A stretch of 64,000 bases of DNA from a bacterium (lineage in GTDB: Bacteria; Patescibacteriota; Patescibacteriia; JACQRZ01): contig JAUYIE010000003.1 in NCBI GenBank assembly GCA_030688365.1, positions 30,417-94,416 of the forward strand, written 5' to 3'. The notes below the pieces were generated by a model. It did no database searches. It saw only the letters and a list, made by a program, of their open reading frames with translations, and was not told the origin of the DNA. A program made the position numbers and the translations under genes. This document shows, in pieces, positions 1 to 20,234 of the stretch (within the stretch, counting starts at the first letter, position 1; each line of letters opens with the position of its first letter).

Positions 1-511
1 CAAGATAATTCTTTTTTGGATAATATTGCCCAAACATATACCCCTCTTCAACCTTGCTATGTTCAATAATATTGGTAACTAATTCGGAAATAGGATAGTA
101 CACTGCACTGCTAGCCTTGGACGTTCCCAGTACTTTTAATACCATATTTGAAAACAATGTCTCAAGACGGTCTCTCCCCGCCCCGGCACTCTTTTTTAAT
201 ATGCTGATAGGTACATACGTTTTATTACTTTGGCTCAAAGCCTCAAATCCTGATACGGAATCCACACCAGCAGGAAAATGTATACAATCAAAATATGACT
301 GCAATTTTGAAGAACTCCCAAAAACGTCACCACCTACCGATTTAAGGTATGCCACTAAGGGCAAAACAAAAAGCGGAGAGGCAAAGCTAACGCTCGACAA
401 ATCAAAGCATACCTTTTCACCATCCTTAATATCCTTGAAAGCTAAGTACAGTGGTCGCAATATATCGACCAATGAAGTTGTAACAAATTCAGGAACTTTT
501 ACCGTTTTCAT
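1..511 (-). CDS. Partial CDS, not in the ORF track because it runs off the window start. The N-terminal 170+ aa lie in the window and the C-terminus is beyond position 1. Hypothetical protein with a GHKL/anti-sigma-kinase-like N-box (ELVTNIIEHS) and an upstream STAS-like stretch (CFDLSSVSFASPLFVLPLVAYL). An alternative ATG sits at 620.
   Basis: I reverse-complemented and translated by hand. The minus-strand frame is open from about 620 to position 1 and reads MKTVKVPEFVTTSLVDILRPLYLAFKDIKDGEKVCFDLSSVSF...YYPISELVTNIIEHSKVEEGYMFGQYYPKKNYL. It is co-oriented with, and immediately downstream of, the RT and Zn-ribbon genes. Confidence 0.4.
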   Translation of the reverse strand, partial: MKTVKVPEFVTTSLVDILRPLYLAFKDIKDGEKVCFDLSSVSFASPLFVLPLVAYLKSVGGDVFGSSSKLQSYFDCIHFPAGVDSVSGFEALSQSNKTYVPISILKKSAGAGRDRLETLFSNMVLKVLGTSKASSAVYYPISELVTNIIEHSKVEEGYMFGQYYPKKNYL

Positions 512-660
512 ATACATACAGCTTATCAACGGCAAGAAACAAAAGCAAACAAAAAACCACTCATATAGAATGATTTCCTGTGGTGCTTTCGTCAGGAGAG
601 GTGGTGAACGCGTAAGCATTAACGACCAATCCAAAAAAAATTAACGTTATCCAATAAATT

Positions 661-1044
661 TTAATACTTCAGACCACAACATATTCTACACAAGGGTTGA
701 CTACTATAGTCTCGCGGATATGCCCTATAATATAGGCATACCGCCCTCCTATCACATTTGTTACAGATAAGGTAAGGTACATATCCTTTCTTCAAGTTAG
801 ACGGCACAAAATCCATCCTTTGCTCATACCAGTCCCGGAATCCATTATGGATAGCACCTAAAGATTTGAATTGATACCATACTCCAGCCTCAAACAATGC
901 TTTGATTCGTAACATTTCCCCAACACGATCAAATATAACATTTTCCTGCTCTATTTCAGCAAGATCCGATAAACAGGCATTAAGATAATCACCTGCCCTA
1001 ATGCTAGACCAATCTTTGATACTTCTATTGTTTGAGGTACGCAT
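661..1044 (-). CDS. Small Cys-rich protein with a putative C-terminal zinc ribbon (CNKCDRR...C...CRICC). Third gene of the HTH-RT operon.
   Basis: 127 aa ORF, 47 nt downstream of the RT stop on the same strand. It has a C-x2-C ... C-x2-C-C cysteine cluster and no recognisable family. Confidence 0.4.
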   Translation of the reverse strand: MRTSNNRSIKDWSSIRAGDYLNACLSDLAEIEQENVIFDRVGEMLRIKALFEAGVWYQFKSLGAIHNGFRDWYEQRMDFVPSNLKKGYVPYLICNKCDRRAVCLYYRAYPRDYSSQPLCRICCGLKY

Positions 1045-1091
1045 AATCTCTAGGAATCTCTAAGGATATAAGACTGAAGAGGGTATAGAAA

Positions 1092-2081
1092 TTAGGTAGT
1101 GGTATCGCTATTTATTTTTCCTATCTGTCGACCATACGCCCCATAAGATCGCAACTGATCATGTGGTTTCTTTTTATGATGACCTTTGGGTGAGACTTTC
1201 AAAGCTTTAATTATACCTGCCCTTTTTTTGATTGTTTTTCTCCCAAAAGATAGTGATTTACGATTCAGTTTCACGCCTAAGTGTTCTATACCCTCGCTAT
1301 AAGTCAAAATTTTGGTCTTTTCCATGTGTATTGGAAGAGGTTGATTGAGATCAAATGTCGCGAACAGGGCAATGATCTCATCTCTCAGGTGTTCCATAAG
1401 TTCATATGGAACCCGGCTCGCGGTAATCCCTATGTCATCTACAAACATAGCAACACGAGGATCATACCCCTTAAGCCTTCTCTGAACAAGCCAATTCATT
1501 CGCAAAAATACATCTAGATTACACCACACTGCCAACCTTGCAGAGGTAGCAAAACCTCGAGCCAAAACCTTGTTATCAGACAGTGACCCTTTGGCTCCCA
1601 CAGGAACACAACAAAAGTGTGCTAATAGATGAGCTAGCCTTTCCCCACACCCTGCCTTTGTATGAAAAAAGGTCTCTACTCTGGCGAGACCCACCTGGTC
1701 GTAAAAACGACGTATATCAAGAGCTAGGAGAGTTCGTTGACGTTTATACCCCAAAAGATATTGTGCTGCTACCAAATGACTTTTACCAGATACACCTCCA
1801 AAAATAAAAGGAGGGAGGCGTACATCGTGGGGTGAGAGTAATTTTTTATCCAAGAGGTATAGTAATTCTCCCAAAGGTTTACCCTTGGCACTGCGTACAA
1901 ATTTTCCTTCCTCTGCCTCAGAGGCGGTTGTATCGTGCCAATAGGTATCAAAATTATCCTTCACGTCATCTATAAAAGCCATTCGCTCATCAAAACTGTG
2001 CGACCTATCAGATAACCTCTTTGCAAGCTCATTCTTGCTTTGAAGAGCAATATTTGGATAACGAGACCTAGTGCTGGACAT
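1092..2081 (-). CDS. Stand-alone reverse transcriptase, 329 aa. It has an RT domain only, with no maturase, endonuclease or RNase H extension. Class undetermined; retron, Abi, DRT or DGR-like are all possible.
   Basis: RT motifs appear in canonical order. Motif 1-2 region: PPFIFGGVSGKSHLVAAQYLLG. Motif A: LLALDIRRFYDQV, with the catalytic Asp in an hDhxxFYDxV context. Degenerate motif B': CVPVGAKGSLSDNKVLARGFA. Motif C: AMFVDDIGI (YxDD-type FVDD). Motifs D/E: LPIHMEKTKILTYSEGIEHLGVKL (EKTKI plus G-x-x-FLG-like). Confidence 0.75.
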   Translation of the reverse strand: MSSTRSRYPNIALQSKNELAKRLSDRSHSFDERMAFIDDVKDNFDTYWHDTTASEAEEGKFVRSAKGKPLGELLYLLDKKLLSPHDVRLPPFIFGGVSGKSHLVAAQYLLGYKRQRTLLALDIRRFYDQVGLARVETFFHTKAGCGERLAHLLAHFCCVPVGAKGSLSDNKVLARGFATSARLAVWCNLDVFLRMNWLVQRRLKGYDPRVAMFVDDIGITASRVPYELMEHLRDEIIALFATFDLNQPLPIHMEKTKILTYSEGIEHLGVKLNRKSLSFGRKTIKKRAGIIKALKVSPKGHHKKKPHDQLRSYGAYGRQIGKINSDTTT

Positions 2082-2400
2082 ATTTTCGCAAATTCTTTGC
2101 CTTGTTCTTCACAAGGTTGTCTTGGAGCTTTTCACCAATTGCAATAAGGCTCAGATCTAATTTAGAAAAGTTCCTTTTATCGTGGTTCTCATCAATAAAA
2201 AGAAAAGGCGTCACAGAATTTGGTCTCACGCCTAATCGTTCAGCAAGACGTAAAATAAAATTCTTTGATACATCCTTTTGCCCTGTTTCGATCATTGAAA
2301 CCAAAATAGTTGATACTCCCAGAACCGATGCAAATTCTTCTTGGGTAATATCTGCGGATTCACGTATCTTCTTAAGTAAGACGGGAAATGTGTACATCAA
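2068..2400 (-). CDS. XRE-family helix-turn-helix transcriptional regulator. Its 3' end overlaps the RT start by 14 nt.
   Basis: 110 aa with a classic XRE HTH (ITQEEFASVLGVSTILVSMIETGQKDVSKNFILRLAERLGV). It is the first gene of a minus-strand operon and overlaps the RT start codon. Confidence 0.7.
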   Translation of the reverse strand: MMYTFPVLLKKIRESADITQEEFASVLGVSTILVSMIETGQKDVSKNFILRLAERLGVRPNSVTPFLFIDENHDKRNFSKLDLSLIAIGEKLQDNLVKNKAKNLRKYVQH

Positions 2401-2698
2401 TTTATATGATTAAAGGGTAGCTACCAGAGTCGATCCAAAATAATGCAAATTATCTGTAGGATAATAAGCACTAGTTTTTTGATCATAGATAACTACCCTC
2501 ATATACGCATACGGAAGACACCCATAATGATAACTAGGATTGGTGAGTTGAGCCATAGAAATATAGTTAGGGTAAAACAATGGACTTAGTTCGACTTTCG
2601 CTATTATGGGACTACGCCTTTCCCTTTGCGGTTAATGGTTTCCAAAAGGTCTTCCGTGAATTCAACCCAATAACCGCAAAGGTAGTCAGGTAATCACT

Positions 2699-2775
2699 AA
2701 CAGCATACTGTATACAGTTAACTATTAGCACTAATAAATGCCTATAGCTTACTGCGTAGTGTATACAGCTAACGC
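2699..2775. promoter_or_regulatory. Pair of palindromic operator-like sites upstream of the HTH-RT operon. One is a perfect 12 bp palindrome ACTGTATACAGT followed by GTTAAC. A second TGTATACA core in GTGTATACAGCTAAC lies about 45 bp away.
   Basis: Read directly: catACTGTATACAGTtaac at about 2705-2722 and gtaGTGTATACAGctaac at about 2757-2773. These are short palindromes in the roughly 600 bp intergenic region, which is upstream of the XRE gene on the minus strand. Confidence 0.35.
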
Positions 2776-3016
2776 CAATACACCACAGTGGCCGGAATCT
2801 AAACCTTCTATTTCTAGAAGGGTGAGACAAGCAGATGCTCGTCAAATAATGGATAACATTTACTGCCGCAATATCTCATGGGATTTTGAAATGAACTCTT
2901 GAAACGTATTATACGTTTTGTATAAGTTTTCGTCAAGACACAGATATCCACAGCTGATGCGATCTCACATCCACCGACTTATAGACTGGCATTTTACAAA
3001 TAGCTATCCATACGAT

Positions 3017-3271
3017 TTACCTCTCATTACTATCTGTTGCGTCCTTACCACAATGCTCAAGCAAGGCACCAATCATCATACCAAACCCAGAGAATATAAG
3101 CACAAGTAAAAACGAGGCTGATAACTCATATGCAATAAACCACATAATACCAAAAAGCATAATCGGGAGAGTGAGATTTTCAGGTATCGGTTTTTTACCT
3201 TTTCTCTTCAGGTATGCATTAATAATAAAAATACTCAGTAAAGCAGGTGTGAGTAGAATAACTATTCCCAT
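3017..3271 (-). CDS. Small hydrophobic membrane protein, 84 aa with about 2 TM segments. Hypothetical.
   Basis: ORF with two hydrophobic stretches. Its stop lies about 14 nt from the start of the upstream gene. Confidence 0.35.
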   Translation of the reverse strand: MGIVILLTPALLSIFIINAYLKRKGKKPIPENLTLPIMLFGIMWFIAYELSASFLLVLIFSGFGMMIGALLEHCGKDATDSNER

Positions 3272-3284
3272 ATAATAAAATTGA

Positions 3285-3722
3285 CTACGGGGTAGACTTT
3301 TTTAGATCCGCTTTTACGGCTTTAAGTTCCTGCTCCTTTTCGAGGAAACCCTCTTTTATATTATAATCCGAGAATAAAATTTCATTTGTATAGTAATCCT
3401 TTAGAGTAATATCAAACGACAACTCATCACCTATTGATGTTTGAGTGAGTATGTAAACAATGCAACTTTGTCTTTTGGGGCTATAAAAGACTTCATTAAC
3501 AAATGAACGTCTTACTGTACTATTGCTGTCGTCCTTGTCTAGCTGTTTCTCTAAAATAGGCTTTATAGCTCCACATTCTTTAATTTTAGCCACAATCTCT
3601 TTTTCTCTATATAATCGTGGTTGGACAACAAGAAAATAATAAGCCGTGCATCCGGTAGCAAAGAGAAAGACGCAGAGAAATAAAAGTCTGAACCAATTAT
3701 ATCTCAAAAAATCCACAACCAT
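3285..3722 (-). CDS. Membrane-anchored hypothetical protein, 145 aa with an N-terminal TM helix.
   Basis: N-terminal hydrophobic segment LLFLCVFLFATGCTAYYFLVV. It sits 15 nt downstream of the secreted repeat protein gene on the same strand. Confidence 0.4.
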   Translation of the reverse strand: MVVDFLRYNWFRLLFLCVFLFATGCTAYYFLVVQPRLYREKEIVAKIKECGAIKPILEKQLDKDDSNSTVRRSFVNEVFYSPKRQSCIVYILTQTSIGDELSFDITLKDYYTNEILFSDYNIKEGFLEKEQELKAVKADLKKSTP

Positions 3723-3736
3723 AGATATTGTTATCC

Positions 3737-5293
3737 TTAATTACTTTTTGTAGCACATCTCACAACTAAATCGGGGCTCTCACTCTTTGCCGGTAATCCT
3801 AATGGAAAAATCACTGTATCATTTTGGTTGCTAGTAGCGAGCTTTATATCAATAATTGACAAACCCAGAGTATCCCCTATTTTCATCCCAGTAGGATCAA
3901 ACTTCACATTTAAATTAAATGGCCATGTCAGGCCGTTTTGACTTGGGACGGTAAATAATAATGTATCTCCATCGACCGACTGTTTATTGAACAAAATTCC
4001 CGGTATATTACCAGATATACCAGATGGTGACGTTGATATACTTAGATCAATGTCCGCAAGGTTGGCAGTACCCGCTTTTTTTAGAGTAACCGATTGCAAA
4101 GATAAACCAGTGAGTTGTTCATTATTCCCTACATTTAGCCGTAGTGTTGAAAATACAGCTTGGTTTGGCCAGACTTCATCCACAGCACCTGAAATGCCAC
4201 CATTAGGAGACGAGGTGTCTGTTAAGTTTAGCCCACAATGATTGTTTGCAGTTCCATAATTCCATGCATCATTGGTATCAAAGTGTGGAACTATTTTCCA
4301 CGTATGATTGATAGAGACAGAAAGTTGTTTAACGGTAGTATTCCAGTCTTTATCTGCACAAATGAGATAATAGATAAAATTTGGTATCTTTTCGTATCCA
4401 GTTTCTTGTAAAGCAAAGCTAGTACTACCATTAGGAAGTCTCCCAACGAAAGGAATTGAGATATCTTGAGTCTCAGTAGTGGCACACGTAATAGCATTCT
4501 TGGTCTCCCAGTTTAAGGTTAGAACGTCTCCTATACTAGCCGTCGCCTTGTCGGCTTCGAAACGAGTGATTTCAGGTTTTGTAGGTTGAGGGGGTAGCAC
4601 CACCTGTACTGGTGTTGGTTGAACAATTGGGGGAATCTGGGCTATAGGATCTGTGACAGGTCTTTTTGATGATGGAGGTATATTAACCGTCGTTGTTTCT
4701 TTTTGAGAAATAGATGCATCGTCTGTCAAATCTTTTGCAAAAAGGATTGGGGTGACCGATACAACGTCATTACTATCCACTTGAGGAGTTGATGATATTG
4801 CCCGGGGTTGTAAACCGTCAGATGACTTGACTATTTTATTAAGGTCAATATTTGATATACCCAAACCCATTCCTTTCATGATATTAAAAGCATCCTGAGG
4901 ACGTCCCAAAAAGTAAGCATATCCTGTTTTTGGTTCTACATAATACGCTTCGCCGGCTCTTTCTACTCGCAGAATAATTTTCCCAAGTAAACTATTACCT
5001 TTATTGCTTCGCATCATCCTAAAATCATTCTGATCTGGTGTAAACATAGATAAAATATCCTTTTCACTTATCCCAGTCCCTTGCTTGCGCATTACCTCAA
5101 ATGCGTCCGCTGGACGACCAAGGTAGTATCTTTGTTTATTTGTCGGGTTCACATACCAGGCTTCACCTTTTGACTCTACTTGGATCAAAATTTTACCGAT
5201 AACACTGGTAATATTTTCTGTATTTGAAATTGCAAAAACACTATACGGAAATATCAGTAAAAGACCAAGTAATATTGAAAACAAGTATTTCAT
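3737..5293 (-). CDS. Secreted protein of 518 aa with a signal peptide, two tandem repeats of about 50 aa at the N-terminus, and a C-terminal beta-rich domain. Hypothetical.
   Basis: Signal peptide MKYLFSILLGLLLIFPYSVFA. Internal repeats GKILIQVESKGEAWYVNPTNKQRYYLGRPADAFEVMRKQGTGISEKDI and GKIILRVERAGEAYYVEPKTGYAYFLGRPQDAFNIMKGMGLGISNIDL. It is followed by a Pro/Thr/Gln-rich linker. Confidence 0.6.
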   Translation of the reverse strand: MKYLFSILLGLLLIFPYSVFAISNTENITSVIGKILIQVESKGEAWYVNPTNKQRYYLGRPADAFEVMRKQGTGISEKDILSMFTPDQNDFRMMRSNKGNSLLGKIILRVERAGEAYYVEPKTGYAYFLGRPQDAFNIMKGMGLGISNIDLNKIVKSSDGLQPRAISSTPQVDSNDVVSVTPILFAKDLTDDASISQKETTTVNIPPSSKRPVTDPIAQIPPIVQPTPVQVVLPPQPTKPEITRFEADKATASIGDVLTLNWETKNAITCATTETQDISIPFVGRLPNGSTSFALQETGYEKIPNFIYYLICADKDWNTTVKQLSVSINHTWKIVPHFDTNDAWNYGTANNHCGLNLTDTSSPNGGISGAVDEVWPNQAVFSTLRLNVGNNEQLTGLSLQSVTLKKAGTANLADIDLSISTSPSGISGNIPGILFNKQSVDGDTLLFTVPSQNGLTWPFNLNVKFDPTGMKIGDTLGLSIIDIKLATSNQNDTVIFPLGLPAKSESPDLVVRCATKSN

Positions 5294-5614
5294 ACAATTT
5301 CCTAAATATTTAAAAGACTAAACAAAAAGCCCACCGCATGAGGTGATGACTTACGTCATCCATTGACCTTTCGATCAACGACCAGCAAAGGTAGCCCCCA
5401 TAACGATGGGTTCTCTATCTTTGCTGGCTTTGATGCCATGCCCGTTCTTTACAGAACCAGGTTTAGGCAATGATTCAATTGTACCTATACACTAGCAAAT
5501 TAACGGAAAAACATAAAGACCTACAGGAAAATGCTTATGCCCGCCACAACGTCTTTATATAATTCATGATAGGGGCTATTATCAATAATACTAAATGAAT
5601 ATGCCTAATGTTTT

Positions 5615-6337
5615 ATGAAAAAAGAACAAGTTGTAATAGAAAATTTCTACCGCTTTTCACATTTACTAGCAATCTTGGAAGGTAAAGATTGTACCAATGA
5701 CGCATTTCTTTATCTAATTCACAAATATTACCCCCAAGACACAGAATCTTATAAATTACATTTTTGTTCACTTGCAAGTATTTTAAAAAGGGAGAAACCA
5801 AACGACGAAGAGTATAAAAATAAAGAAAAGTCTGCGATAGTTATGATGCGCAAGTGGCCAGCCACTAAAATGATTAAATTTGATAAAGATATTGAAAATT
5901 TCTTAGAAAAAATGGGATTTGGGACGGAATGGCGAATGCCGATTATAACAGCAGTACTTACGGGCTTCTTCTATCCTCCCTCTCAAAACTACTATTTAGA
6001 AACAAGAAAAAGAAAAAGAAAAAAACTCAGTCTAGAAATAAATCAATATACCTCTAAAAATGATATCGAGGACGCGTGGCAAGAAATAGAACTTACACAA
6101 AAAGAATTATGGCCGTCTTTTGATAAAAGAAATTTTACAAAAAAATCACTAGGTGACTTACTCTTTTTTGCCAAAGCAAATGCTATCAAAAAAAATCTTA
6201 TTGAGAAAAATACAGACGAAACACCAATAAATGATTTTGATGTCGTGTTGTACTTATTTCCTGAGGCAGATCCGGAAACAGATAAAAAATATGTCAATTG
6301 GGTAAGAAAAAATCGTTATAAATATAAGACATTCTAA
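5615..6337 (+). CDS. Hypothetical protein of 240 aa in an AT-rich cargo region.
   Basis: ORF with Lys-rich composition in a visibly AT-rich segment at about 5300-7200. No family recognised. Confidence 0.4.
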   Translation: MKKEQVVIENFYRFSHLLAILEGKDCTNDAFLYLIHKYYPQDTESYKLHFCSLASILKREKPNDEEYKNKEKSAIVMMRKWPATKMIKFDKDIENFLEKMGFGTEWRMPIITAVLTGFFYPPSQNYYLETRKRKRKKLSLEINQYTSKNDIEDAWQEIELTQKELWPSFDKRNFTKKSLGDLLFFAKANAIKKNLIEKNTDETPINDFDVVLYLFPEADPETDKKYVNWVRKNRYKYKTF

Positions 6338-6419
6338 TTTTCTTTCCAAAAGTTGGAATGTGCCCAAATTGGGATCTGTTAAGCTCGTACTCATACTACG
6401 AGTTTTTTAAATTAACAGA

Positions 6420-6665
6420 ATGCATATGCAAAATGAATCACTTCATATAACAAAAGACCGTTTTGAAATCTATGTACTTTTAGCCACACACTGTGAGGTA
6501 GCTAATTATAACGCAAACAACAAGGGTCAAATATATTTTCACTTTAAAAATAAGAAAAAGTGCGAACAAGCGTTAAATATGCTTCTTTCAAAAAAGTTGA
6601 AGCTTTATGCTCATGAAATGATCGGGGCGATTAGAGATGCACAGGCGATCTTCAGGGCAAATTAA
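6420..6665 (+). CDS. Small hypothetical protein of 81 aa; island cargo.
   Basis: ORF only. AT-rich context. Confidence 0.25.
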   Translation: MHMQNESLHITKDRFEIYVLLATHCEVANYNANNKGQIYFHFKNKKKCEQALNMLLSKKLKLYAHEMIGAIRDAQAIFRAN

Positions 6666-6919
6666 TCATTTACTCCTTTAAAATCGTGATTTGCTCCCAA
6701 TCTAGGAATAAATCAGGGTTTTAAACCTTCGTCTCACCACACCTTATCGTAGGAAATCGCGGACGTTAAAAAGCGGTTGAAACGATCCAATACGGACACC
6801 TACCGTGGAAAATCGCAGTACCTTAATTAAACAAAAGATAGGAAAACCTATCTGTAAACTATCCTTACCTCAGATCATAGATATGTTGGTATATACAGAT
6901 TTTTTACGAAGGAAACGGC

Positions 6920-7123
6920 TTGGGGAGGTGGTTAACCTTAACATGTTCAGAATGTATGAGAGATTCAAAAAACAGTAGATTCAAAAAGACGATATCGACC
7001 ACCTTAGAAGATTTTGATTTTATAGAAAAAGAACGCCACAAAAAATCTAAGGCTGGAAAACTTGAAGAGATAATAGCGTACTATAAAAAATACAACCTTA
7101 AACTCGATACTAATAAAAAATAA
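6920..7123 (+). CDS. Small hypothetical protein of 67 aa; island cargo.
   Basis: ORF only. Confidence 0.2.
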   Translation: MGRWLTLTCSECMRDSKNSRFKKTISTTLEDFDFIEKERHKKSKAGKLEEIIAYYKKYNLKLDTNKK

Positions 7124-7185
7124 TGTTAAGGTAACATTGCCCGGAGATACTGATCTCCCCAGTGTACCTTAACAATTAAACAACG

Positions 7186-7401
7186 ATGTCAGACTTACGT
7201 ACTACAATGACCTGCCCAGAATTACTCACTCCCAAGGAGGTTATGAGTGTTCTTCGCATCTCCCCAGCGACCTTTTATCGGATCATTGAACAGCGCCTCA
7301 TCCCCTTCTACAAAGTAGGCCGAGGTCTCCGGTTTGATAAAAGCGATATTGTGGGATACTTAGCCGGTCAACGTATTAAGTCGGCGTCTGAATGGAAATG
7401 A
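7186..7401 (+). CDS. Excisionase/AlpA-like DNA-binding protein (HTH_17/MerR-like Xis family).
   Basis: 71 aa. The motif LLTPKEVMSVLRISPATFYRII...IPFYKVGRGLRFDKSDIVGYL is typical of phage excisionase/AlpA regulators. Its 3' end overlaps the integrase ORF. Confidence 0.6.
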   Translation: MSDLRTTMTCPELLTPKEVMSVLRISPATFYRIIEQRLIPFYKVGRGLRFDKSDIVGYLAGQRIKSASEWK

Positions 7402-8543
7402 ATATGAGTGCACGTAAATTACATGGCTCATGGTGGGTTGATTTCCACTATGAAAGAAAACGACATCGCATCCGAAGCCCTGAAAACAGTAAGGTGGGGG
7501 CGACAGCATACGAGTCAATACTTCGACAACGTCTTGTCCGAGGCGAGCCTCTCATGTCAAAAAATCAACCTACCATACCAACCCTCAAAGAGTTCGCTCG
7601 ACAATGGTTTGAAACGTATGTCGTGACCAACAATAAGCCGTCTGAACAGCGAAATAAAAGAATACATCTTGCACGTCATTTATTGCCTTTTTTTGGAAAA
7701 CTCAGATTAGATGAAATTACTCGAGCGCATATTGAACAGTACAAAACGCACAAAATTGGCGAAGGACTGGCTCCCAAATCCGTAAACAACCATCTCGGAA
7801 TACTTAGCAAGTGCCTCCGATGTGCCGTTGAGTGGGAGGTAATAGACAAAACGCCACGCATGGGGACATTACGAGTCCCTCCGCCACCCTTTGACTTCTT
7901 GTCGCCTCGCGAAAGCCAAATGCTTCTTGAGGCCGCAACCGACTATCCGTGGGGTACTATGCTTCTCACTGCACTGCGAACAGGCATGAGGCTAGGAGAA
8001 CTGCTCGCGCTTGATTGGAACGATATAGATCTTGAACGGCGGATCATCGCCGTGCGACACTCACGAGTAGATGGAATCACAGGGAGTCCGAAAAATAACA
8101 AAGTGCGATATGTGCCGATATCATCGGAACTCCTTACCGCGTTCTACGCCATCCCGACTCGCACAGGGTATGTATTTGTCGCCTCGCACGGGAAAGCAGT
8201 GACAAAAAACATTGCCGCGTGGCACCTGAACAAATACTGCAAGCAAAGCAACCTCCGTCATATAGGATGGCATACGCTCCGTCATACCTTCGCATCACAG
8301 CTCGCCTCCTCCGGCGTTCCCTTGCGCATGGTTCAAGAATTTCTTGGACACTCAACACTTCAAATGACCGTGAGGTACGCGCACCTTGCGCCATCCTCAC
8401 TTGCCGACACAATCGACATACTTGATATGCTCCCAAATAGACAACCTGAAACATTTTGGGCACTATCTGGGCAACAAGGACAAAAAAATCTCGTTTTGCC
8501 TTCCGGCACGAGTGATAACCACAGTAGATATGCTGATATCTAA
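7392..8543 (+). mobile_element. int: Tyrosine site-specific integrase, P4-like with an N-terminal arm-binding region. It ends 35 bp from the 3' end of tRNA-Arg.
   Basis: C-terminal catalytic region HTLRHTFASQLASSGVPLRMVQEFLGHSTLQMTVRYAHL (R...HxxR...Y). Further upstream are LRTGMRLGELLALDWNDID (box I Arg) and an N-terminal SAM-like domain. It lies adjacent to a tRNA gene. Confidence 0.85.
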
Positions 8544-8577
8544 AACAAAAAACCATCCAATAAAGGATGATTTCCTG

Positions 8578-8652
8578 TGGTGCTCTCGCCAGGAGTCGAA
8601 CCTGGATTGCAAGATCCGCAATCTTGCGTCCTATCCATTGAACGACGAGAGC
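8578..8652 (-). tRNA. tRNA-Arg, anticodon read as GCG.
   Basis: Hand-folded cloverleaf on the minus strand: GCTCTCG-TC-GTTC/AATGGATA/GGAC-G-CAAGA/TTGCGGA/TCTTG-CAAT-CCAGG/TTCGACT/CCTGG-CGAGAGC-A-CCA. It has a GTTCGA T-loop and an encoded CCA. Confidence 0.75.
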
Positions 8653-9306: not shown

Positions 9307-10041
9307 TCAACGGACAGGCGTATGGCGAGGTGGTATACCATGCGCGAATACAAGGGCGGAAATCTTCTCTGCACCAGCCATGCGCAATGCACGTGCTGCT
9401 GATCTGAGTGTAGCACCAGTTGTGGTCACATCATCAACTAAAATAATTCGTTTAGGTATATCACGAGTACACACCACAGAATAAACGTCTTCCATATTTT
9501 CCCATCGTGCAGACACGCCCAACGTTGCTTGTGGGGCACGTGCTACTGTGCGTATCAACAATCGTGAATATATTGCTCTTTGACATACCTGCGCTATACC
9601 TTGTGCTAGACATAGAGATTGATTAAATCCTCTCTCTTTGTAACGTATTTTATCCAGTGGTATCGGCACAATAGCATCCGTATCGCTATATTCATCAATC
9701 ATACGTGAACCCAAAATGATACCAAGATCCATGCCCAATGCTTCTCTATACCCATACTTTAATGTATGTATCATATGAGCGATGTGCACATCATCATAGC
9801 GATATCCTATCCATAGATCATCTAAACCCCAAAGTCTTGAGCAACTCTCACAAATATTTGATCGTTCGCTTGTCCCACGACACCACGCGCACACGTTTTG
9901 AGGCCATGACGTCAGAGTATAGACACATTGGCTACACAAAAAAGCGCCTTCTGTATTACAGACGACGCAAAGACGCGGAAAAAGAATATCCCAAAATACA
10001 TCTCCAACACGATGTAGCGTATTGCTCAAAAATCGTTGCAT
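9307..10041 (-). CDS. comFC: ComF-family (ComFC) phosphoribosyltransferase-domain competence protein.
   Basis: N-terminal double Cys pairs (CVVCNTEGAFLCSQC ... CAWC...CESC). C-terminal PRTase motif ILVDDVTTTGATL. Its start overlaps the stop of the upstream gene by 1 nt. Confidence 0.75.
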   Translation of the reverse strand: MQRFLSNTLHRVGDVFWDILFPRLCVVCNTEGAFLCSQCVYTLTSWPQNVCAWCRGTSERSNICESCSRLWGLDDLWIGYRYDDVHIAHMIHTLKYGYREALGMDLGIILGSRMIDEYSDTDAIVPIPLDKIRYKERGFNQSLCLAQGIAQVCQRAIYSRLLIRTVARAPQATLGVSARWENMEDVYSVVCTRDIPKRIILVDDVTTTGATLRSAARALRMAGAEKISALVFAHGIPPRHTPVR

Positions 10042-10652
10042 TATTCTTTCCAGTCCACCGAATCAACGAGCCACACGCTCCCTTCTTTCATCATCTGTAT
10101 GGTCGCATCTTGATTATACACCTTACTATTTGTCACCGTGCCAACTGATTCCTTTCTTTGTACTGTCATCGTGATTTGGGCATCAATATCATTCATGCTT
10201 GCAACATGATACGAAAGAACAGTGGTGGTCGTACCTGCATAAATGGGTTGATACTCTACACTCTTCACTTCAGCAATCTTGTCTGTTGCCCATGTTTTCA
10301 ACGACTGTGTCATAAATGGTAACAATATCTCCAGATTTTTTCCGTTTCCTTGATTAGAAAAACTTCCCAACCGCTCAACAAACGGCACCGCTATAGCAAT
10401 CAAATCCGATTCTGCAGGTTCTAGCGGTGTCGCCGGTACTCGCGCCGCAGGATTGTCTGTCGTCGACGTAACAGGAGTTGTATCTGTACGTACAGTAGTG
10501 GTATCTTGCGGGGTTACTTGTGTTTGTTCATCTTCAGGCAGTGGCGTCTGTGTGTTATCGGGCCTCATAAAAATAATTGCACCGACAATCGCGAGTACCA
10601 CAACAATACCACCCCCAATGAGAATAAGTTTTGTCCGAGTTGTCATAATCAT
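10041..10652 (-). CDS. Membrane-anchored protein of 203 aa with an N-terminal TM helix and a Thr/Pro-rich linker. Hypothetical component of the T4SS-like operon.
   Basis: TM segment LILIGGGIVVVLAIVGAIIF. Low-complexity TPQDTTTVRTDTTPVTSTT. Translationally coupled to comFC. Confidence 0.45.
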   Translation of the reverse strand: MIMTTRTKLILIGGGIVVVLAIVGAIIFMRPDNTQTPLPEDEQTQVTPQDTTTVRTDTTPVTSTTDNPAARVPATPLEPAESDLIAIAVPFVERLGSFSNQGNGKNLEILLPFMTQSLKTWATDKIAEVKSVEYQPIYAGTTTTVLSYHVASMNDIDAQITMTVQRKESVGTVTNSKVYNQDATIQMMKEGSVWLVDSVDWKE

Positions 10653-10665
10653 ATAATAAATATTA

Positions 10666-12543
10666 TTATTCTAATCCTTTTTCTTCTGCAAATTCTTCCT
10701 TTGCTTCCTCAATCTCCAAAAGCTGGCGCGGGTCAGTCGTAATCAGCTGATCTTCAGCATACGATGCCACTACTTTGATAGCCGCATGTTTCTGTCCAGC
10801 GAAGAAAATACCTTCCCCGGGTGCTGATTCAAGCAATAGATATTTCTCTCCTTCTGTAAGTAAAAATGTTTCCTGAATCAAATCTATGGACGCAGTAGAT
10901 TGTTTTAACAAAAGTTGAATAGCCGAGTTGGTCAAAATCGCCTTGCCGTATTGAGAACCAAGAAAATCGTTTACATCTTGAGTGATGGTGGTCAATCCCA
11001 AATAATATTTACGACATCGCTTTGCAAGCGCGTACACAAATTTTGCCGAATCCTCGTGTTGCATCAACCACCACGCCTCATCAATAACCAATATACGTTT
11101 TTTCATTTCCGAGCGCACGACGTTCCAGATATAGTTTACCACCGTATAGATGGCAATCGGTCTCAATTCGTCTTCCAAATCACGAACAGAAAATACAACC
11201 AATTGATTCTTTGTATCTACGTTCGTCGGTTTATTAAACAATCCAGCGAACGTGCCTTCAGTATATTTTTTTAGCTTCGCAACCAGTTCTCCCCCGCCTT
11301 CCATACCTTCCAACACATCTTGAAAATCGCTCATTGTTGGAGATTCTACGCCTTTGCTGAGATCCACATCTGGTGTGATATCTTTCTTTGCGTATGTTTC
11401 AATAAGAGCGCGATCAACAATAGAATCTTCTTGTTGAGTAAATGACCCTAACATGAGACGGAATAATCCTTTTAACATAATAACTGCACTTCGGATTGTA
11501 TCTGCTGTGGAGGTGGTATCGCCTACAGGTCGTGGTAAGTCAAACGGATTGATACGTGCAGTTGAAGAAAGTGCGATATTGATATATGTTCCACCAACTG
11601 CTTCGCATAGATGTTGATACTCGCGCTCCGGATCAATCACGATTACGTCCGTCCCCAACATCATTGAACGCAGAATTTCCAGTTTGATTGCGTAGGACTT
11701 GCCGGCGCCAGATGTCGCAAACACCACAGAGTTTGCATTCGGCATTGAAAAACGATCAAAAATAATCAAGCTATTATTATGTCGATTGATGCCGTACATT
11801 ACCCCGTTATCTGATGTTACATCCGAAGACACAAATGGAAATGATGCGGCCGCAGGCGACGTATTCATATTAAAAGGAATCTGAAGTTCATCAGAACCTA
11901 CTGGTACAGTAGAATTGTATCCTTGTTCCGCCTGATATAATACTCGTTTTGTATATACCATCTTTGCCGCATACAACGCCTCCACATCCTCCGTCAATTT
12001 ATTCAATTCATCCAGTGTTGATCCATACAACGTCATATACATACCGACAGAAAAAAAATGTTCAGTGCCAATCGTCAGGTCGTCACGCAATTTTTCGACG
12101 TCAGACATAGCACTTTCGGCCATTGGATCACGTGCCTTACCTTGTTCCTGTGCGGTAGAAATCTCCGCTTCCAAGCGTCCTACTTTCTCTTTGAGCTGTT
12201 TCAAAACGTATCGAGCGGGCAATGGTGAAAAATGCAATGCAATATCAAACGTAGCACTGTAATTAATGATATCTGCAAACCAACCGACGTTTAAATACCG
12301 AGGATACCCGACAACAAAAACAGTACGAGCATACGCGCTTCCAATACGTACATAATTTGACTGTACTTCCAGCGCGGACGGAGCGATTAAGTCACGGATA
12401 GTCAAAATCCCCTTCCTATATCTCAATTCTTCTTCAATGGCTTGCTTTTCATCTTTCACCTGCGCAGCATTGAGAGCTCGTTTCTCCTCTTCTATGGGAG
12501 AACGTCCTTTTTCGGAGATAGTTTGAATTGGTTGAAATGCCAT
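10666..12543 (-). CDS. virB4: VirB4/TrbE/CagE-family type IV secretion ATPase, C-terminal ATPase portion of 625 aa.
   Basis: Walker A: VVFATSGAGKSYAIK. Walker B: RILVIDEAWWLMQHED (the DEAW signature of VirB4). Also a downstream TTITQ motif. Confidence 0.75.
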   Translation of the reverse strand: MAFQPIQTISEKGRSPIEEEKRALNAAQVKDEKQAIEEELRYRKGILTIRDLIAPSALEVQSNYVRIGSAYARTVFVVGYPRYLNVGWFADIINYSATFDIALHFSPLPARYVLKQLKEKVGRLEAEISTAQEQGKARDPMAESAMSDVEKLRDDLTIGTEHFFSVGMYMTLYGSTLDELNKLTEDVEALYAAKMVYTKRVLYQAEQGYNSTVPVGSDELQIPFNMNTSPAAASFPFVSSDVTSDNGVMYGINRHNNSLIIFDRFSMPNANSVVFATSGAGKSYAIKLEILRSMMLGTDVIVIDPEREYQHLCEAVGGTYINIALSSTARINPFDLPRPVGDTTSTADTIRSAVIMLKGLFRLMLGSFTQQEDSIVDRALIETYAKKDITPDVDLSKGVESPTMSDFQDVLEGMEGGGELVAKLKKYTEGTFAGLFNKPTNVDTKNQLVVFSVRDLEDELRPIAIYTVVNYIWNVVRSEMKKRILVIDEAWWLMQHEDSAKFVYALAKRCRKYYLGLTTITQDVNDFLGSQYGKAILTNSAIQLLLKQSTASIDLIQETFLLTEGEKYLLLESAPGEGIFFAGQKHAAIKVVASYAEDQLITTDPRQLLEIEEAKEEFAEEKGLE

Positions 12544-12550
12544 ACAGTTA

Positions 12551-13249
12551 TTATGACTCTACTTGAATTTTAGAAACGTCCACCATTTTTTCTCGGGTTG
12601 CCACGTCAGGGTTATATGTATTGTAATACAATTCTATAAGACTCTGTGTCTCCAATCGCACTGCGTTTAATCCCATACTAGAAAGGCCGTTCATGACATT
12701 GCTGACTCGTTGTTCCAAAAGATGTTTTCTATCCTCAAATTCCTGGTGACTTAATGCCAATGCCCTGTTGGTAGATATAAGCGCCTTTACTTGAGGCCAA
12801 AAACCATTCTTCTTATCCGATACAGGATCATAGGGCACGACAATAAAAAATTTCTTACTTGTAATATCCGAAAGTTCAACCATTTCTGAAATAAATTGAC
12901 GGTAGTCGGAAATCTGTAAACGCAACAGATCATTTGTCTGCTCTTTTTCCTTTTTTTCTAGACTGGATAAATAGTTATCAATATCAAGATTACGAGACTG
13001 GATGACAATCTCCAACGGAAACTCAATGGAGTTAAGAAACTGCATATATCCTTGAATGGTAGCGTTTTGTTCTTCTTCTGACTTCAATGAGAAGTTCATA
13101 GACGATACCAAAAGCACAGCACGTAATGTACCGTCTTGCATTACCACTACCCCTTCATGAATCTCCGCCATAGGAAGATATTTCTGGGTTGCAGGCGTGG
13201 AATGCGTTGCGTGAGGCGATTTTTCAATTTTTCCTTTCGTATTGGCCAT
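12551..13249 (-). CDS. Probable VirB4 N-terminal domain encoded as a separate 232 aa ORF. This would be a split or frameshifted virB4.
   Basis: Begins with a motif typical of VirB4/TcpF N-termini: VVVMQDGTLRAVLLVSSMNFSLKSEEEQNATIQGYMQFLNSIEFPLEIVIQS. Its stop is 7 nt before the ATPase ORF start, in a different frame. Combined length is about 857 aa, which is normal for VirB4. Confidence 0.5.
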   Translation of the reverse strand: MANTKGKIEKSPHATHSTPATQKYLPMAEIHEGVVVMQDGTLRAVLLVSSMNFSLKSEEEQNATIQGYMQFLNSIEFPLEIVIQSRNLDIDNYLSSLEKKEKEQTNDLLRLQISDYRQFISEMVELSDITSKKFFIVVPYDPVSDKKNGFWPQVKALISTNRALALSHQEFEDRKHLLEQRVSNVMNGLSSMGLNAVRLETQSLIELYYNTYNPDVATREKMVDVSKIQVES

Positions 13250-13254
13250 GAGCG

Positions 13255-13728: not shown

Positions 13729-13785
13729 GGTGTAGATACCTCGAGCGAGGTGAGTACATTATTATTGTACCACATTATCAGGTTT

Positions 13786-15897: not shown

Positions 15898-15908
15898 GGA
15901 AATAAATA

Positions 15909-20199: not shown

Positions 20200-20234
20200 C
20201 TGCTATATTAAATATGAAAATATAGCAGTTTTTT
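20200..20234 (+). terminator. Rho-independent terminator for the lipoprotein gene.
   Basis: CTGCTATAT-(11 nt loop)-ATATAGCAG followed by TTTTTT, located between convergent genes. Confidence 0.5.

What the first reader, a model, noticed from the sequence alone, without database searches (positions are those of the whole stretch)
1..8652. Probable integrated element ending at tRNA-Arg, with a P4-like integrase, excisionase, AT-rich cargo and the RT module
A tyrosine integrase (7392-8543) ends 35 bp from the 3' end of tRNA-Arg, and an AlpA/Xis-like gene overlaps its start. To the left lie visibly AT-rich DNA at about 5300-7200 with short lysine-rich ORFs, a secreted repeat protein and the RT operon. 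This is the canonical layout of a tRNA-targeting genomic island or prophage remnant. The left boundary is not visible and may lie before position 1.
Basis: partly seen in the sequence, partly recalled or inferred. Interest (0 to 1): 0.6.

Follow-up and report, generated by a model that had tools for sequence, protein, structure and literature searches.

The report
Integrated mobile island at tRNA-Arg
An 8-kb mobile DNA element has inserted into the end of a tRNA-Arg gene in an uncultivated Patescibacteria (CPR) bacterium, bringing its own integrase and excisionase, a type VI retron anti-phage system and a LOOT RNA; it is a clear but fairly ordinary genomic island.

Summary
The last 18 nt of tRNA-Arg(GCG) plus its terminator hairpin (8540-8602) recur at 547-598. 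The exact 18-nt core is ATGATTTCCTGTGGTGCT, at 570-587 and 8567-8584, and none of 100 shuffles gave a match. This bounds a 7,997-bp element.

Its contents:
- a tyrosine integrase and an excisionase-family HTH
- four lysine-rich ORFs in 34% GC DNA
- a LOOT RNA 52 nt upstream of a secreted 518-aa protein
- two membrane proteins
- a type VI retron: structured RNA, 48-aa ORF, HTH and RT
- a Zn-ribbon protein

A third, more complete copy of the site lies 0.94 kb left of position 1, on the same public contig. It encloses a 1.5-kb integrase-less module (GHKL ATPase plus STAS-like protein), so the locus is a tandem array.

Five related Patescibacteria genomes have tRNA-Arg within about 50 nt of recG. 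Here the two are 11.3 kb apart.

No phage structural or conjugation genes are present, and the "P4-like" label is not supported. A second element (L121) shares LOOT, a DUF5659 protein and the Zn-ribbon family, but uses a serine integrase at tRNA-Gln.

Verdict: a new member of a known kind, of moderate interest.

The parts
1..510 (-). First 170 codons of a 282-aa GHKL/HATPase_c protein. The gene runs off the left end of the window. It belongs to the outer, integrase-less module B, together with a 111-aa STAS-like gene further left.
   Evidence: Gene calls on the identical public contig L001/L083. Pfam HATPase_c 1e-5 and STAS 0.0047. PADLOC gives a partial DrmA match at 1.3e-11. The contig is identical to the window over 8,635 nt.
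547..598 (+). att site 2, the left junction of element A. It holds the tRNA-terminator-like arm (547-569), the exact 18-nt core ATGATTTCCTGTGGTGCT (570-587) and a diverged tRNA-like arm (588-598, 2 mismatches).
   Evidence: family D1; 90.6% over 53 nt to site 1, E 1.3e-11; 0 matches in 100 shuffles. On the minus strand 581-549 reads as a hairpin followed by a T-run.
661..1044 (-). p127, a small protein with a C-terminal four-cysteine zinc ribbon. It lacks the 13-60-residue C-terminal tail that its homologues carry.
   Evidence: 55 representative homologues at E<=1e-3. Alignment A4 has invariant C94, C97, C119 and C122. No Pfam, PHROG, PADLOC or PDB hit. It is not conserved next to RT homologues.
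1092..2081 (-). Retron reverse transcriptase of the type VI clade. The catalytic motif reads FVDD.
   Evidence: PADLOC RT_VI 1.7e-22, covering 2-276 of 279 profile positions; the next best model, RT_IV, scores 2.6e-10. RVT_1. Homologues of 45-57% identity; those that carry a source name are mostly Patescibacteria.
2068..2400 (-). Cro/C1-type HTH partner of the retron. It overlaps the RT start by 14 nt.
   Evidence: PADLOC HTH_VI 1.5e-12. Pfam HTH_3 1.3e-11.
2410..2556 (-). 48-aa small ORF in the position of the type VI retron small-protein (SP) toxin.
   Evidence: A 48-51-aa ORF ends 6-10 nt before the HTH gene in all four retron loci compared. It was called as a gene on the Logan contig. No family hit.
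2413..2936 (-). Structured retron RNA, similar to the published hyRNA. It comprises a promoter-like site at 2936-2908, a conserved long hairpin at 2603-2701 and a conserved hairpin inside the SP ORF at 2413-2500.
   Evidence: MFE z-score -5.1. On four loci, 91.8% of cells are paired and 19 pairs change on both sides, against 9.0+-2.0 in shuffles (0 of 500 reach it) and 2-6 when partners are slid. TTGACG-17-TATAAT matches 11 of 12 positions.
3017..3722 (-). Two envelope proteins: p84, with hydrophobic segments read as two transmembrane helices, and p145, with an N-terminal hydrophobic segment that resembles a lipobox.
   Evidence: ORFs and sequences. No family hits.
3737..5293 (-). p518, a secreted protein with a signal peptide, two 51-aa N-terminal repeats, a Pro/Thr-rich linker and a C-terminal domain.
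   Evidence: The same repeat occurs in the neighbouring SNase protein and in proteins of L008; a similar motif is seen by eye in the L004 protein. No Pfam hit even at E<=5.
5345..5469 (-). LOOT RNA (Rfam RF03000), 52 nt upstream of the p518 start codon. A terminator-like hairpin follows at 5346-5331.
   Evidence: 85.9 bits against a gathering score of 46.4, full length. Terminator-like site.
5615..7123 (+). AT-rich block (about 34% GC) of lysine-rich ORFs: p240, p81 (weak DUF5659), p57 and p67/p55. They lie on the same strand as xis and int.
   Evidence: (DUF5659 0.0017). No PHROG, PDB or Pfam hit. The AlphaFold model of p240 is unusable (pLDDT 42).
7186..7401 (+). Excisionase-family HTH (Xis).
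   Evidence: HTH_17 2.7e-13. TIGR01764 at 41.6 bits against a cutoff of 28.8. phrog_66.
7392..8543 (+). Tyrosine integrase. NCBI annotates the start at 7404 (MDP2655987.1).
8540..8602 (+). att site 3, the right junction of element A. It holds the element-supplied terminator arm (8540-8566), the 18-nt core (8567-8584) and the native tRNA body.
8578..8652 (-). tRNA-Arg(GCG), the integration target. It is intact, with an encoded CCA end.

Best explanation
Window 570-8584 is a 7,997-bp integrative element (element A). It entered the chromosome of a Patescibacteria bacterium, whose closest named relatives are Ca. Uhrbacteria MAGs, by site-specific recombination catalysed by its own tyrosine integrase.

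The target is the 3' end of tRNA-Arg(GCG) together with the terminator hairpin just downstream. The element's attP mimics that stretch. Insertion therefore rebuilds an intact tRNA and terminator next to the integrase gene, and leaves a partial copy at the far end (547-598). Strand exchange must lie within the 18 identical bases, ATGATTTCCTGTGGTGCT. The adjacent excisionase-family HTH would direct the reverse reaction.

Element A landed next to an older 1.5-kb module (GHKL ATPase plus STAS-like protein). That module is flanked by two near-identical copies of the same ~60-nt site and has no integrase. The locus is thus a tandem array built by repeated use of one tRNA.

The cargo is what the host gains:
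- a type VI retron (structured RNA, 48-aa small ORF, HTH and RT), inferred to act in abortive-infection phage defence
- an envelope module: LOOT RNA, a secreted 518-aa protein and two membrane proteins.

Shown here: the repeats, the intact integrase and tRNA, the unoccupied site in relatives, and family membership of the RT, HTH and LOOT. Inferred: current mobility, order of insertion, retron activity and the role of LOOT.
For: 1. The att duplication is far beyond chance. The 29-nt tRNA-end pattern occurs twice in 64 kb and in none of 100 shuffles. The 63-nt site has exactly three copies in 69 kb, with E-values from 1.3e-11 to 6.5e-32, aligned.

2. The geometry is canonical. Xis is followed by Int, and the Int stop codon lies 34 nt from the tRNA 3' end, which faces it.

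3. The integrase is intact and its catalytic motifs align to XerA.

4. A 50%-identical integrase in Falkowbacteria shows the same HTH_17 -> Int -> | <- tRNA layout at tRNA-Ser. More distant relatives sit next to tRNA-Glu and tRNA-Ala.

5. The site is unoccupied in relatives. L005, L008, L057, L039 and L053 have p160 - tRNA-Arg(gcg) - recG - p200, with about 4-52 nt between the tRNA and recG. Here the gap is 11.3 kb in the same orientation.

6. None of the 11 element proteins has a tblastn match in the 80 related loci, apart from the repeat domain of p518.

7. Composition is mosaic: 34% GC in the AT-rich block and 48% in xis-int, against 41.6% in the host.

8. The shared arm of the att sites reads as a hairpin plus T-run on the tRNA strand. 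This explains why the repeat extends 38 nt beyond the tRNA.

9. The reconstructed pre-insertion site (left arm of site 2 plus right arm of site 3) is nearly identical to site 1, as tandem accretion predicts.

10. The retron is supported by PADLOC RT_VI 1.7e-22 and HTH_VI 1.5e-12, a small ORF conserved in position, and RNA covariation. These match the published SP-HTH-RT and hyRNA architecture (bioRxiv 10.1101/2025.10.22.683967; 10.64898/2026.04.27.721009).
Against: - No excised circle or unoccupied site from the same population was seen. The genomes with the unoccupied site are only order- or family-level relatives (VirB4 65-75% identical, RecG 45-51%). The closest relative (L003, 86%) has a contig that stops before the tRNA.
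- Overall GC differs from the host by only about 1.6 sd.
- The 1.7 kb between site 1 and recG (SNase plus NTPase) is also missing from those relatives, yet has no att copy next to recG. The full history of the locus is therefore not resolved.
- The two mismatches in the tRNA-like arm of site 2 could reflect decay of a fixed element rather than a diverged attP.
- No transfer function (relaxase, packaging) was found, so the route between cells is unknown.
- The retron covariation rests on only four sequences.
Confidence: 0.85

Rival explanations
1. A single 9.6-kb element is bounded by the outermost copy (site 1, window -998..-936) and the tRNA. Site 2 at 547-598 is then an internal relic or a secondary recombination site, and the GHKL-ATPase/STAS pair is simply more cargo.
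For: Site 1 keeps the longest exact tRNA segment (25 nt) and the same 16 nt that follow the integrase stop codon. Module B has no integrase of its own.
Against: Site 2 is a complete site: terminator arm, 18-nt exact core and tRNA-like arm. Its left arm matches site 1 and its core matches site 3. That is the pattern expected from a second insertion into a site already regenerated by the first. An internal relic has no reason to keep an 18-nt exact core shared with the active junction.
Confidence: 0.2
2. This is a fossil island. It was inserted once by the mechanism above, but it is now fixed and no longer excises.
For: There are two mismatches in the tRNA-like arm of site 2. p127 lacks the C-terminal tail of all 11 aligned homologues. 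The element was found in one sample only.
Against: The integrase, excisionase, RT and HTH reading frames are full length and match their family profiles end to end. The 18-nt core is perfectly conserved.
Confidence: 0.3
3. This is a prophage remnant or a phage satellite that moves by hijacking a helper phage's capsid.
For: A LOOT RNA also occurs in an IMG/VR phage contig, just upstream of the portal/capsid genes. The small size and the int-xis pair resemble those of satellites.
Against: Apart from the integrase and excisionase, none of the eight other element proteins tested hits PHROGs. There is no capsid, terminase, primase or lysis gene. The RT, integrase and p127 families have no relatives in IMG/VR, and the attP junction is absent there.
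Confidence: 0.1
4. This is not an insertion. It is a native, fast-evolving intergenic region, and the repeats arose by local duplication.
For: The tRNA-Arg/recG gap also varies in relatives without an integrase: L004 has a 566-aa secreted protein there, and L052 has two small ORFs.
Against: The repeats coincide exactly with the tRNA 3' end and abut an intact integrase. Chance expectation is zero. The cargo includes mobile-element hallmarks, and homologous retrons lie in other mobile elements.
Confidence: 0.02

Closest known systems
tRNA-gene-targeting genomic islands and integrative elements with tyrosine integrases. The class includes P4/CP4-57-type islands and defence-carrying P4-like satellites. 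This comparison rests on general knowledge and was not retrieved here.
   Same: The integrase gene abuts the 3' end of a tRNA gene. The element regenerates the tRNA end. Direct repeats of the tRNA 3' segment flank the element. A small HTH excisionase sits next to int. The cargo is variable and often defence-related. Tandem accretion at a single tRNA is known for this class.
   Different: The host is an uncultivated Patescibacteria (CPR) bacterium. The integrase lacks the P4-type DUF4102 arm domain. The repeat covers only 18-25 nt of the tRNA, plus about 38 nt of its terminator. The element is very small (8 kb) and has no replication, packaging or transfer genes that could be recognised.
Type VI retrons: Retron-Vpa2 (bioRxiv 10.1101/2025.10.22.683967) and Retron-Sen3 (bioRxiv 10.64898/2026.04.27.721009)
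   Same: The gene order is SP-HTH-RT, with the HTH overlapping the RT. A roughly 490-nt structured RNA upstream runs into and includes the small ORF. The RT and HTH match the type VI profiles.
   Different: The RT belongs to a clade whose named members are mostly Patescibacteria, 45-57% identical among its members. The SP sequence is unrelated to those compared. The catalytic motif is FVDD rather than YADD. An extra Zn-ribbon gene lies downstream. msDNA production and defence are untested. The only CPR type VI retron tested so far (Ca. Levybacteria) gave no ssDNA in E. coli.
Element in metagenome contig Ga0395983_000187 (locus L121)
   Same: A LOOT RNA lies 54 nt upstream of a large secreted protein. 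Divergent from it is a block containing a roughly 280-aa ORF, a DUF5659 protein and a small ORF. A p127-family Zn-ribbon protein (48% identical) is present. The element is integrated at a tRNA 3' end.
   Different: It uses a large serine recombinase at tRNA-Gln(CTG) rather than a tyrosine integrase at tRNA-Arg. It carries a HipA-type toxin and a 479-aa Walker-A protein, and no retron. The secreted proteins and the 240/281-aa ORFs show no detectable sequence similarity.
Falkowbacteria element with integrase P0159 (loci L113-L115)
   Same: The integrase is 50% identical. The layout is the same: HTH_17 -> Int -> | <- tRNA, with an 8-nt gap. The cargo is defence-type.
   Different: The target is tRNA-Ser(GCT). 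The cargo is an N6/N4 methylase, a SWI2/SNF2 helicase and ArdC-N. There is no retron and no LOOT.

Membership tests
tRNA-targeting integrative element / genomic island (tyrosine-recombinase type) | Encodes an intact tyrosine recombinase with the catalytic R..HxxR..H/W..Y motifs | tested here: met
   Pfam Phage_integrase 1.9e-32 and phrog_1 5.5e-72. TGMRLGEL, HTLRHTFA, LGHSTL and VRYAHL align to XerA 5hxy.
tRNA-targeting integrative element / genomic island (tyrosine-recombinase type) | Lies at the 3' end of a tRNA gene, which stays intact | tested here: met
   tRNA-Arg(gcg) at 8578-8652 is complete and lies 34 nt from the integrase stop codon.
tRNA-targeting integrative element / genomic island (tyrosine-recombinase type) | Flanked by direct repeats that contain the tRNA 3' segment | tested here: met
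   570-598 against 8567-8595: 18-nt exact core, 27 of 29 positions identical, 0 matches in 100 shuffles. A third copy lies outside the window.
tRNA-targeting integrative element / genomic island (tyrosine-recombinase type) | Absent from the same site in related genomes | tested here: met
   In five Patescibacteria genomes tRNA-Arg lies about 4-52 nt from recG, against 11.3 kb here. These are only distant relatives; no same-species comparison was available.
tRNA-targeting integrative element / genomic island (tyrosine-recombinase type) | Excises as a circle and re-integrates | not testable with these tools
The predicted junction sequences are given.
P4-like integrase family | N-terminal DUF4102 (PF13356) arm-type DNA-binding domain ahead of the SAM-like and catalytic domains. 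This definition is from general knowledge. | tested here: not met
   The Pfam scan at E<=0.01 returned Phage_int_SAM_3, SAM_5, Int_N, Phage_int_M, SAM_2 and Phage_integrase, but not PF13356. The best NCBIfam hits are XerA/XerC-like and all fall below their cutoffs.
AlpA / excisionase family | Small winged-helix protein that matches an excisionase model | tested here: met
   TIGR01764 'excise' at 41.6 bits, above the cutoff of 28.8. HTH_17. The specific Phage_AlpA Pfam model was not among the hits, so this is 'excisionase family' rather than AlpA proper.
Prophage or prophage remnant | Phage structural, packaging, lysis or replication genes | tested here: not met
   Eight other ORFs gave no PHROG hit. 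The RT, HTH and SP ORFs were not scanned against PHROGs but match retron profiles. No relatives of Int, RT or p127 were found in IMG/VR.
Integrative conjugative or mobilisable element | Relaxase, coupling protein or oriT | tested here: not met
   No such Pfam or NCBIfam hit among the element's ORFs. The VirB4/PrgI/TraC-like cluster to the right of the tRNA is conserved chromosomal synteny in more than 500 Patescibacteria contigs. oriT was not searched.
Type VI retron | RT of the type VI clade | tested here: met
   PADLOC RT_VI 1.7e-22 (78 bits, full length), against 38 bits for the next type. No phylogeny was built.
Type VI retron | Cro/C1-type HTH gene upstream of, or overlapping, the RT gene | tested here: met
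   PADLOC HTH_VI 1.5e-12, with a 14-nt overlap. The feature is described.
Type VI retron | Small-protein (SP) gene upstream of the HTH gene | tested here: inconclusive
   A 48-aa ORF ends 9 nt before the HTH gene. ORFs of 48-51 aa occupy the same position in three homologous loci. Sequence similarity is minimal, and membership of the published SP clusters was not testable.
Type VI retron | Conserved structured RNA that includes the SP coding region (hyRNA) | tested here: met
   Two conserved hairpin systems. 19 pairs change on both sides, against 9.0+-2.0 in shuffles and 2-6 with partners slid. Only four sequences were available. No a1/a2 pairing or branching G was identified.
Type VI retron | RT-dependent ssDNA production and phage defence | not testable with these tools
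   This needs an experiment.
LOOT RNA (Rfam RF03000) | Covariance-model score above the curated gathering score, over the full model | tested here: met
   85.9 bits against 46.4, model positions 1-121 of 121.

The most novel reading that the evidence does not exclude
The island would belong to an undescribed family of small integrative elements, so far seen in this Patescibacteria MAG and in one metagenome contig of unknown host.

The family's shared backbone would be a LOOT RNA placed about 50 nt upstream of a large secreted-protein gene, a DUF5659 protein and a p127-type zinc-ribbon protein. Members would exchange their integration module (tyrosine integrase at tRNA-Arg, or large serine recombinase at tRNA-Gln) and their defence cargo (type VI retron, or HipA).

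On this reading LOOT is a cis-acting leader that controls expression of the downstream gene, and not a free-standing sRNA. The downstream gene is a surface protein in these elements and the portal/capsid operon in a phage. The 1.5-kb integrase-less module beside the island would be mobilised in trans through the shared att site.
Probability: 0.3. Interest if true: 0.6.

Novelty: new member of a known kind. Interest (0 to 1): 0.4.

Why it matters
Mobile elements and defence systems of Patescibacteria (CPR) are known mostly from automated annotation. This locus gives a cleanly bounded example: exact att sites, a reconstructable attB and attP, and the unoccupied site in related genomes.

It shows that these reduced-genome bacteria acquire type VI retrons on small tRNA-targeting elements, and that one tRNA end can accumulate modules in tandem.

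It also gives the orphan LOOT RNA motif a genomic setting for the first time in this analysis. LOOT sits on mobile elements, at a fixed distance upstream of a large secreted-protein gene, and co-occurs with a rare zinc-ribbon family. That makes its function testable.

None of this changes what is known about how such islands work.

Tried and rejected
- Exact-protein look-ups of the flanking genes (p160, ComF, p203) found only contigs from the same sample, so no same-species unoccupied site could be obtained.
- The contig break inside the tRNA in the Logan assembly was considered as a sign of population heterogeneity. I rejected it as uninformative, because short-read contigs often break at tRNAs.
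- The metagenome scan with the integrase gave only relatives of 44% identity or less.
- IMG/VR scans with Int, RT, the p127 alignment and the attP junction were all negative.
- p240, p81, p57/p67, p84, p145 and p518 gave nothing in the Pfam, PHROG, PADLOC, NCBIfam and PDB searches run on them (not every protein was run against every library; Pfam down to E=5 for four of them).
- The single-sequence AlphaFold model of p240 was unusable (pLDDT 42), so no fold search was run.
- p127 looked like an orphan in the word-indexed search. The exhaustive HMMER search showed that it is a real family.
- p127 was considered as a fourth retron component and rejected. It is absent next to RT homologues in six other loci, and in L121 it sits next to a serine integrase.
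- A DGR reading of the RT was considered and rejected. The best profile is retron type VI, the HTH and small-ORF partners are retron-like, and no TR/VR pair exists; the only repeat there is 26 nt (D4).
- LOOT was sought upstream of the related repeat-domain genes (SNase, and proteins in L004 and L008) and in 1.48 Mb of related loci. It was not found.
- No literature on the function of LOOT could be retrieved.

Full report
OBSERVATION

ARAGORN places tRNA-Arg(gcg) at 8578-8652 on the minus strand, and Rfam agrees. The 383-aa ORF at 7392-8543 (+) is a tyrosine integrase. It matches Pfam Phage_integrase at 1.9e-32 with an N-terminal SAM-like domain and PHROG phrog_1 at 5.5e-72. Its catalytic motifs (TGMRLGEL, HTLRHTFA, LGHSTL, VRYAHL) align to the XerA structure 5hxy.

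The integrase stop codon is 34 nt from the 3' end of the tRNA, which faces it. The 71-aa ORF at 7186-7401 is an excisionase-family HTH: HTH_17, and TIGR01764 above its cutoff.

The block 5294-7185 has 34.2% GC, lower than any 1.9-kb window in the other 55 kb. Its ORFs are 11-19% lysine, against a 6.5% baseline. The 518-aa protein has a signal peptide and two 51-aa repeats. The RT is real.

BOUNDARIES

A repeat search found that 8548-8595 recurs at 551-598. The exact core, ATGATTTCCTGTGGTGCT, lies at 570-587 and 8567-8584. The 29-nt tRNA-end pattern occurs only at these two places in 64 kb, and never in 100 shuffles. The spacing is 7,997 bp.

The window is identical over 8,635 nt to a 14-kb public contig (Logan SRR13727534) that extends 5.4 kb further left. 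On that extension there is a third copy, 63 nt long. It includes 25 nt identical to the tRNA 3' end and lies at window -998..-936. No further copy exists in 69 kb.

The three-way alignment shows that all copies share about 38 nt downstream of the tRNA plus 18-25 nt of the tRNA itself. On the tRNA strand the shared downstream arm reads as a hairpin followed by a T-run. It is therefore the tRNA terminator, which the element regenerates together with the tRNA end. The arm begins at the integrase stop codon.

TANDEM STRUCTURE

The left arm of site 2 matches site 1, while its core matches site 3. The right arm of site 3 (the tRNA body) matches site 1, whereas the right arm of site 2 has two mismatches and then diverges. 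Joining the left arm of site 2 to the right arm of site 3 recreates a site almost identical to site 1.

This is what is expected if the 1.5-kb stretch between sites 1 and 2 was already flanked by two copies of the site when the 8.0-kb integrase-bearing element inserted into the tRNA-proximal copy. That stretch encodes a GHKL/HATPase_c protein and a STAS-like protein and has no integrase.

I hold this tandem model at about 0.6. The alternative, a single 9.6-kb element with an internal site, I hold at about 0.2.

UNOCCUPIED SITE IN RELATIVES

A scan of species-representative genomes with the neighbouring VirB4-like ATPase identified the host as a Patescibacteria bacterium. Its closest named relatives are Ca. 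Uhrbacteria MAGs (75-72% identity). The best hit (86%) carries a generic "Gammaproteobacteria" label.

In five of these genomes (L005, L008, L057, L039, L053) the order is p160 - tRNA-Arg(gcg) - recG - p200, with only about 4-52 nt between the tRNA and recG. In the present genome the same four markers are present in the same orientation, but tRNA-Arg and recG are 11.3 kb apart. None of the element's proteins has a match in the 80 related loci, except the repeat domain of p518.

There are caveats:
- These are distant relatives (RecG 45-51% identical).
- The closest relative's contig ends before the tRNA.
- The 1.7 kb between site 1 and recG (SNase plus NTPase) is also absent from them, with no att copy to explain it.
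- Other relatives carry different small insertions at the same spot, and L052 and L041 carry extra tRNA-like fragments. The junction is a recurrent target.

WHAT KIND OF ELEMENT

Apart from the integrase and the excisionase, none of the ORFs tested hits PHROGs, and no relaxase, coupling protein, primase or packaging gene was found. Int, RT, p127 and the predicted attP junction have no relatives in IMG/VR. It is therefore a small integrative island, and neither a recognisable prophage nor a conjugative element. How it moves between cells is unknown.

The integrase family is large and broad, with a closest relative of 54% identity. A 50%-identical member in Falkowbacteria has the identical HTH_17 -> Int -> | <- tRNA layout at tRNA-Ser(GCT), with methylase/helicase cargo. 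More distant members sit beside tRNA-Glu and tRNA-Ala. The P4-type DUF4102 domain is absent, so "P4-like" is not supported.

CARGO 1: THE RETRON

The RT matches the PADLOC type VI retron profile end to end (1.7e-22; the next type scores 2.6e-10), and the overlapping upstream HTH matches HTH_VI (1.5e-12). Published type VI retrons have the order SP-HTH-RT. They also have a roughly 470-nt "hybrid RNA" that contains the msr-msd and the small-protein ORF.

The same parts are present here:
- A 48-aa ORF ends 9 nt before the HTH gene. ORFs of 48-51 aa occupy the same position in three homologous loci.
- The best sigma-70-like site in the region (11 of 12 positions) lies at 2936-2908.
- The 616 nt upstream fold far better than shuffles (z = -5.1).
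- On an alignment of four loci, two hairpin systems are kept (2603-2701, and 2413-2500 inside the small ORF). They are 91.8% paired, with 19 pairs changed on both sides, against 9.0+-2.0 in shuffles and 2-6 when partners are slid.

RT homologues of 45-57% identity are numerous, and those that carry a source name are mostly Patescibacteria. At least one lies in another mobile element, with an integrase, Replic_Relax and TrwB. One CPR type VI retron has already been tested by others, and no ssDNA was detected in E. coli. This is a new member, not a new type.

I infer abortive-infection defence through the small protein as toxin and the HTH as antitoxin. Nothing here tests that.

CARGO 2: THE BACKBONE

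A full-length LOOT RNA (RF03000; 85.9 bits against a gathering score of 46.4) lies 52 nt upstream of the p518 start codon. A hairpin and T-run immediately follow it.

The Zn-ribbon protein p127, at the far end of the element, looked like an orphan. It in fact has 55 representative homologues, all with a C-terminal tail that p127 lacks.

Its best homologue lies in a metagenome contig (L121) with a strikingly parallel layout. A LOOT RNA (83.1 bits) sits 54 nt upstream of a 724-aa secreted protein. Divergent from it are a 281-aa ORF, a DUF5659 protein (2.5e-8), a small ORF, a Walker-A protein and the p127 homologue. A large serine recombinase follows, and its 3' end overlaps tRNA-Gln(CTG).

My own LOOT model found no other copy in 1.48 Mb of related chromosomal loci. 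The co-occurrence of the rare RNA with the rare protein family is therefore unlikely to be chance.

LOOT also occurs once in IMG/VR, upstream of a phage portal/capsid operon. All three copies share a 3' extension, GCGGnGGGCUUU, beyond the Rfam model.

This suggests a family of elements with a shared backbone and exchangeable integrase modules. It also suggests a cis-acting role for LOOT. Both are hypotheses resting on two or three loci.

VERDICT

The finding is real and correctly interpreted in outline. It is an 8.0-kb integrative element at tRNA-Arg(GCG), sitting in tandem with an older integrase-less module in a CPR bacterium, and it carries a type VI retron.

It is a new member of a well-known kind of element. 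The parts that could repay further work are the LOOT/p127/DUF5659 backbone and the tandem att arrangement.

Noticed in passing
window 5345-5469 (-); L121 4775-4889 (-); L105 3685-3809 (+): A LOOT RNA (RF03000) lies 52 nt upstream of the secreted 518-aa gene here and 54 nt upstream of a 724-aa secreted-protein gene in L121. In an IMG/VR phage it lies about 290 nt upstream of a portal-like ORF (641 aa, assigned by eye) that is followed by a capsid-like ORF. All three copies share a 3' extension, GCGGnGGGCUUU, beyond the Rfam model. No other LOOT was found in 1.48 Mb of related loci.
   Followed up: partly
L121 1-11550 (JGI Ga0395983_000187): A second element has the same LOOT / DUF5659 / p127-family backbone. 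It is integrated by a large serine recombinase (an ORF not called on the record) whose 3' end overlaps tRNA-Gln(ctg). It also carries a HipA_C toxin gene and two 48-nt direct repeats (566-613 and 968-1015) that look like copies of a terminator plus a tRNA end.
   Followed up: partly
left of the window: L001 1612-1673 (window -998..-936); window 1-510: A third att copy encloses a 1.5-kb module of a GHKL/HATPase_c protein (partial PADLOC match to DrmA, 1.3e-11) and a STAS-like 111-aa protein. The module has no integrase. Its function is unknown, and it may be mobilisable in trans.
   Followed up: partly
window 661-1044 (-): p127 ends directly after the last conserved residue of its zinc ribbon. 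All 11 aligned homologues continue for another 13-60 residues. The sequence after the stop codon shows no trace of the missing tail in that frame (read by eye; the other frames were not checked).
   Followed up: partly
window 3737-5293 (-); L083 9736-10710; L008 16569-17432 and 20350-20946; L004 14174-15874: A roughly 51-aa repeat (GKILLxVExxGEAWYVxPxxxxRYYLGRPxDAFxVM...) is shared by p518, by the neighbouring secreted SNase nuclease and by proteins of L008 (tblastn). A similar motif is seen by eye in the 566-aa protein of L004. No Pfam model covers it. In L004 that protein sits in the same tRNA-Arg/recG gap.
   Followed up: no
L052 about 14343-14420; L041 about 7560-7600: Extra tRNA T-arm-like fragments lie just downstream of tRNA-Arg(gcg) in two relatives. 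They may be scars of earlier integrations at the same tRNA.
   Followed up: no
window 9307-18698 (-): ComF, a 203-aa protein, a VirB4-like ATPase, TraC-like and PrgI-like genes and two large ORFs form a cluster. The VirB4-like gene has relatives on more than 500 Patescibacteria contigs, and the neighbouring genes recur beside it in many of the 80 loci fetched. The cluster is host core and not part of the island.
   Followed up: partly
window 20233-30621 (-): A single 3,462-aa ORF. It was not examined.
   Followed up: no
loci L003, L011, L014, L016 and others: Many GTDB representative records carry close relatives of this Patescibacteria VirB4-like gene (up to 86% identity) yet are titled 'uncultured Gammaproteobacteria bacterium'. 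These are probably placeholder or wrong taxonomic labels.
   Followed up: no
window 8578-8652, and tRNA-Arg in 13 related loci: The targeted tRNA-Arg has the anticodon GCG, as do all of its counterparts in the relatives examined. Most bacteria use ACG (from general knowledge).
   Followed up: no
window 2697-2722 and 2748-2773: Two 26-nt direct repeats (81% identical), each containing the palindrome CTGTATACAG, lie inside the retron RNA region. Direct repeats in loop regions are reported for the Vpa2 hyRNA.
   Followed up: no
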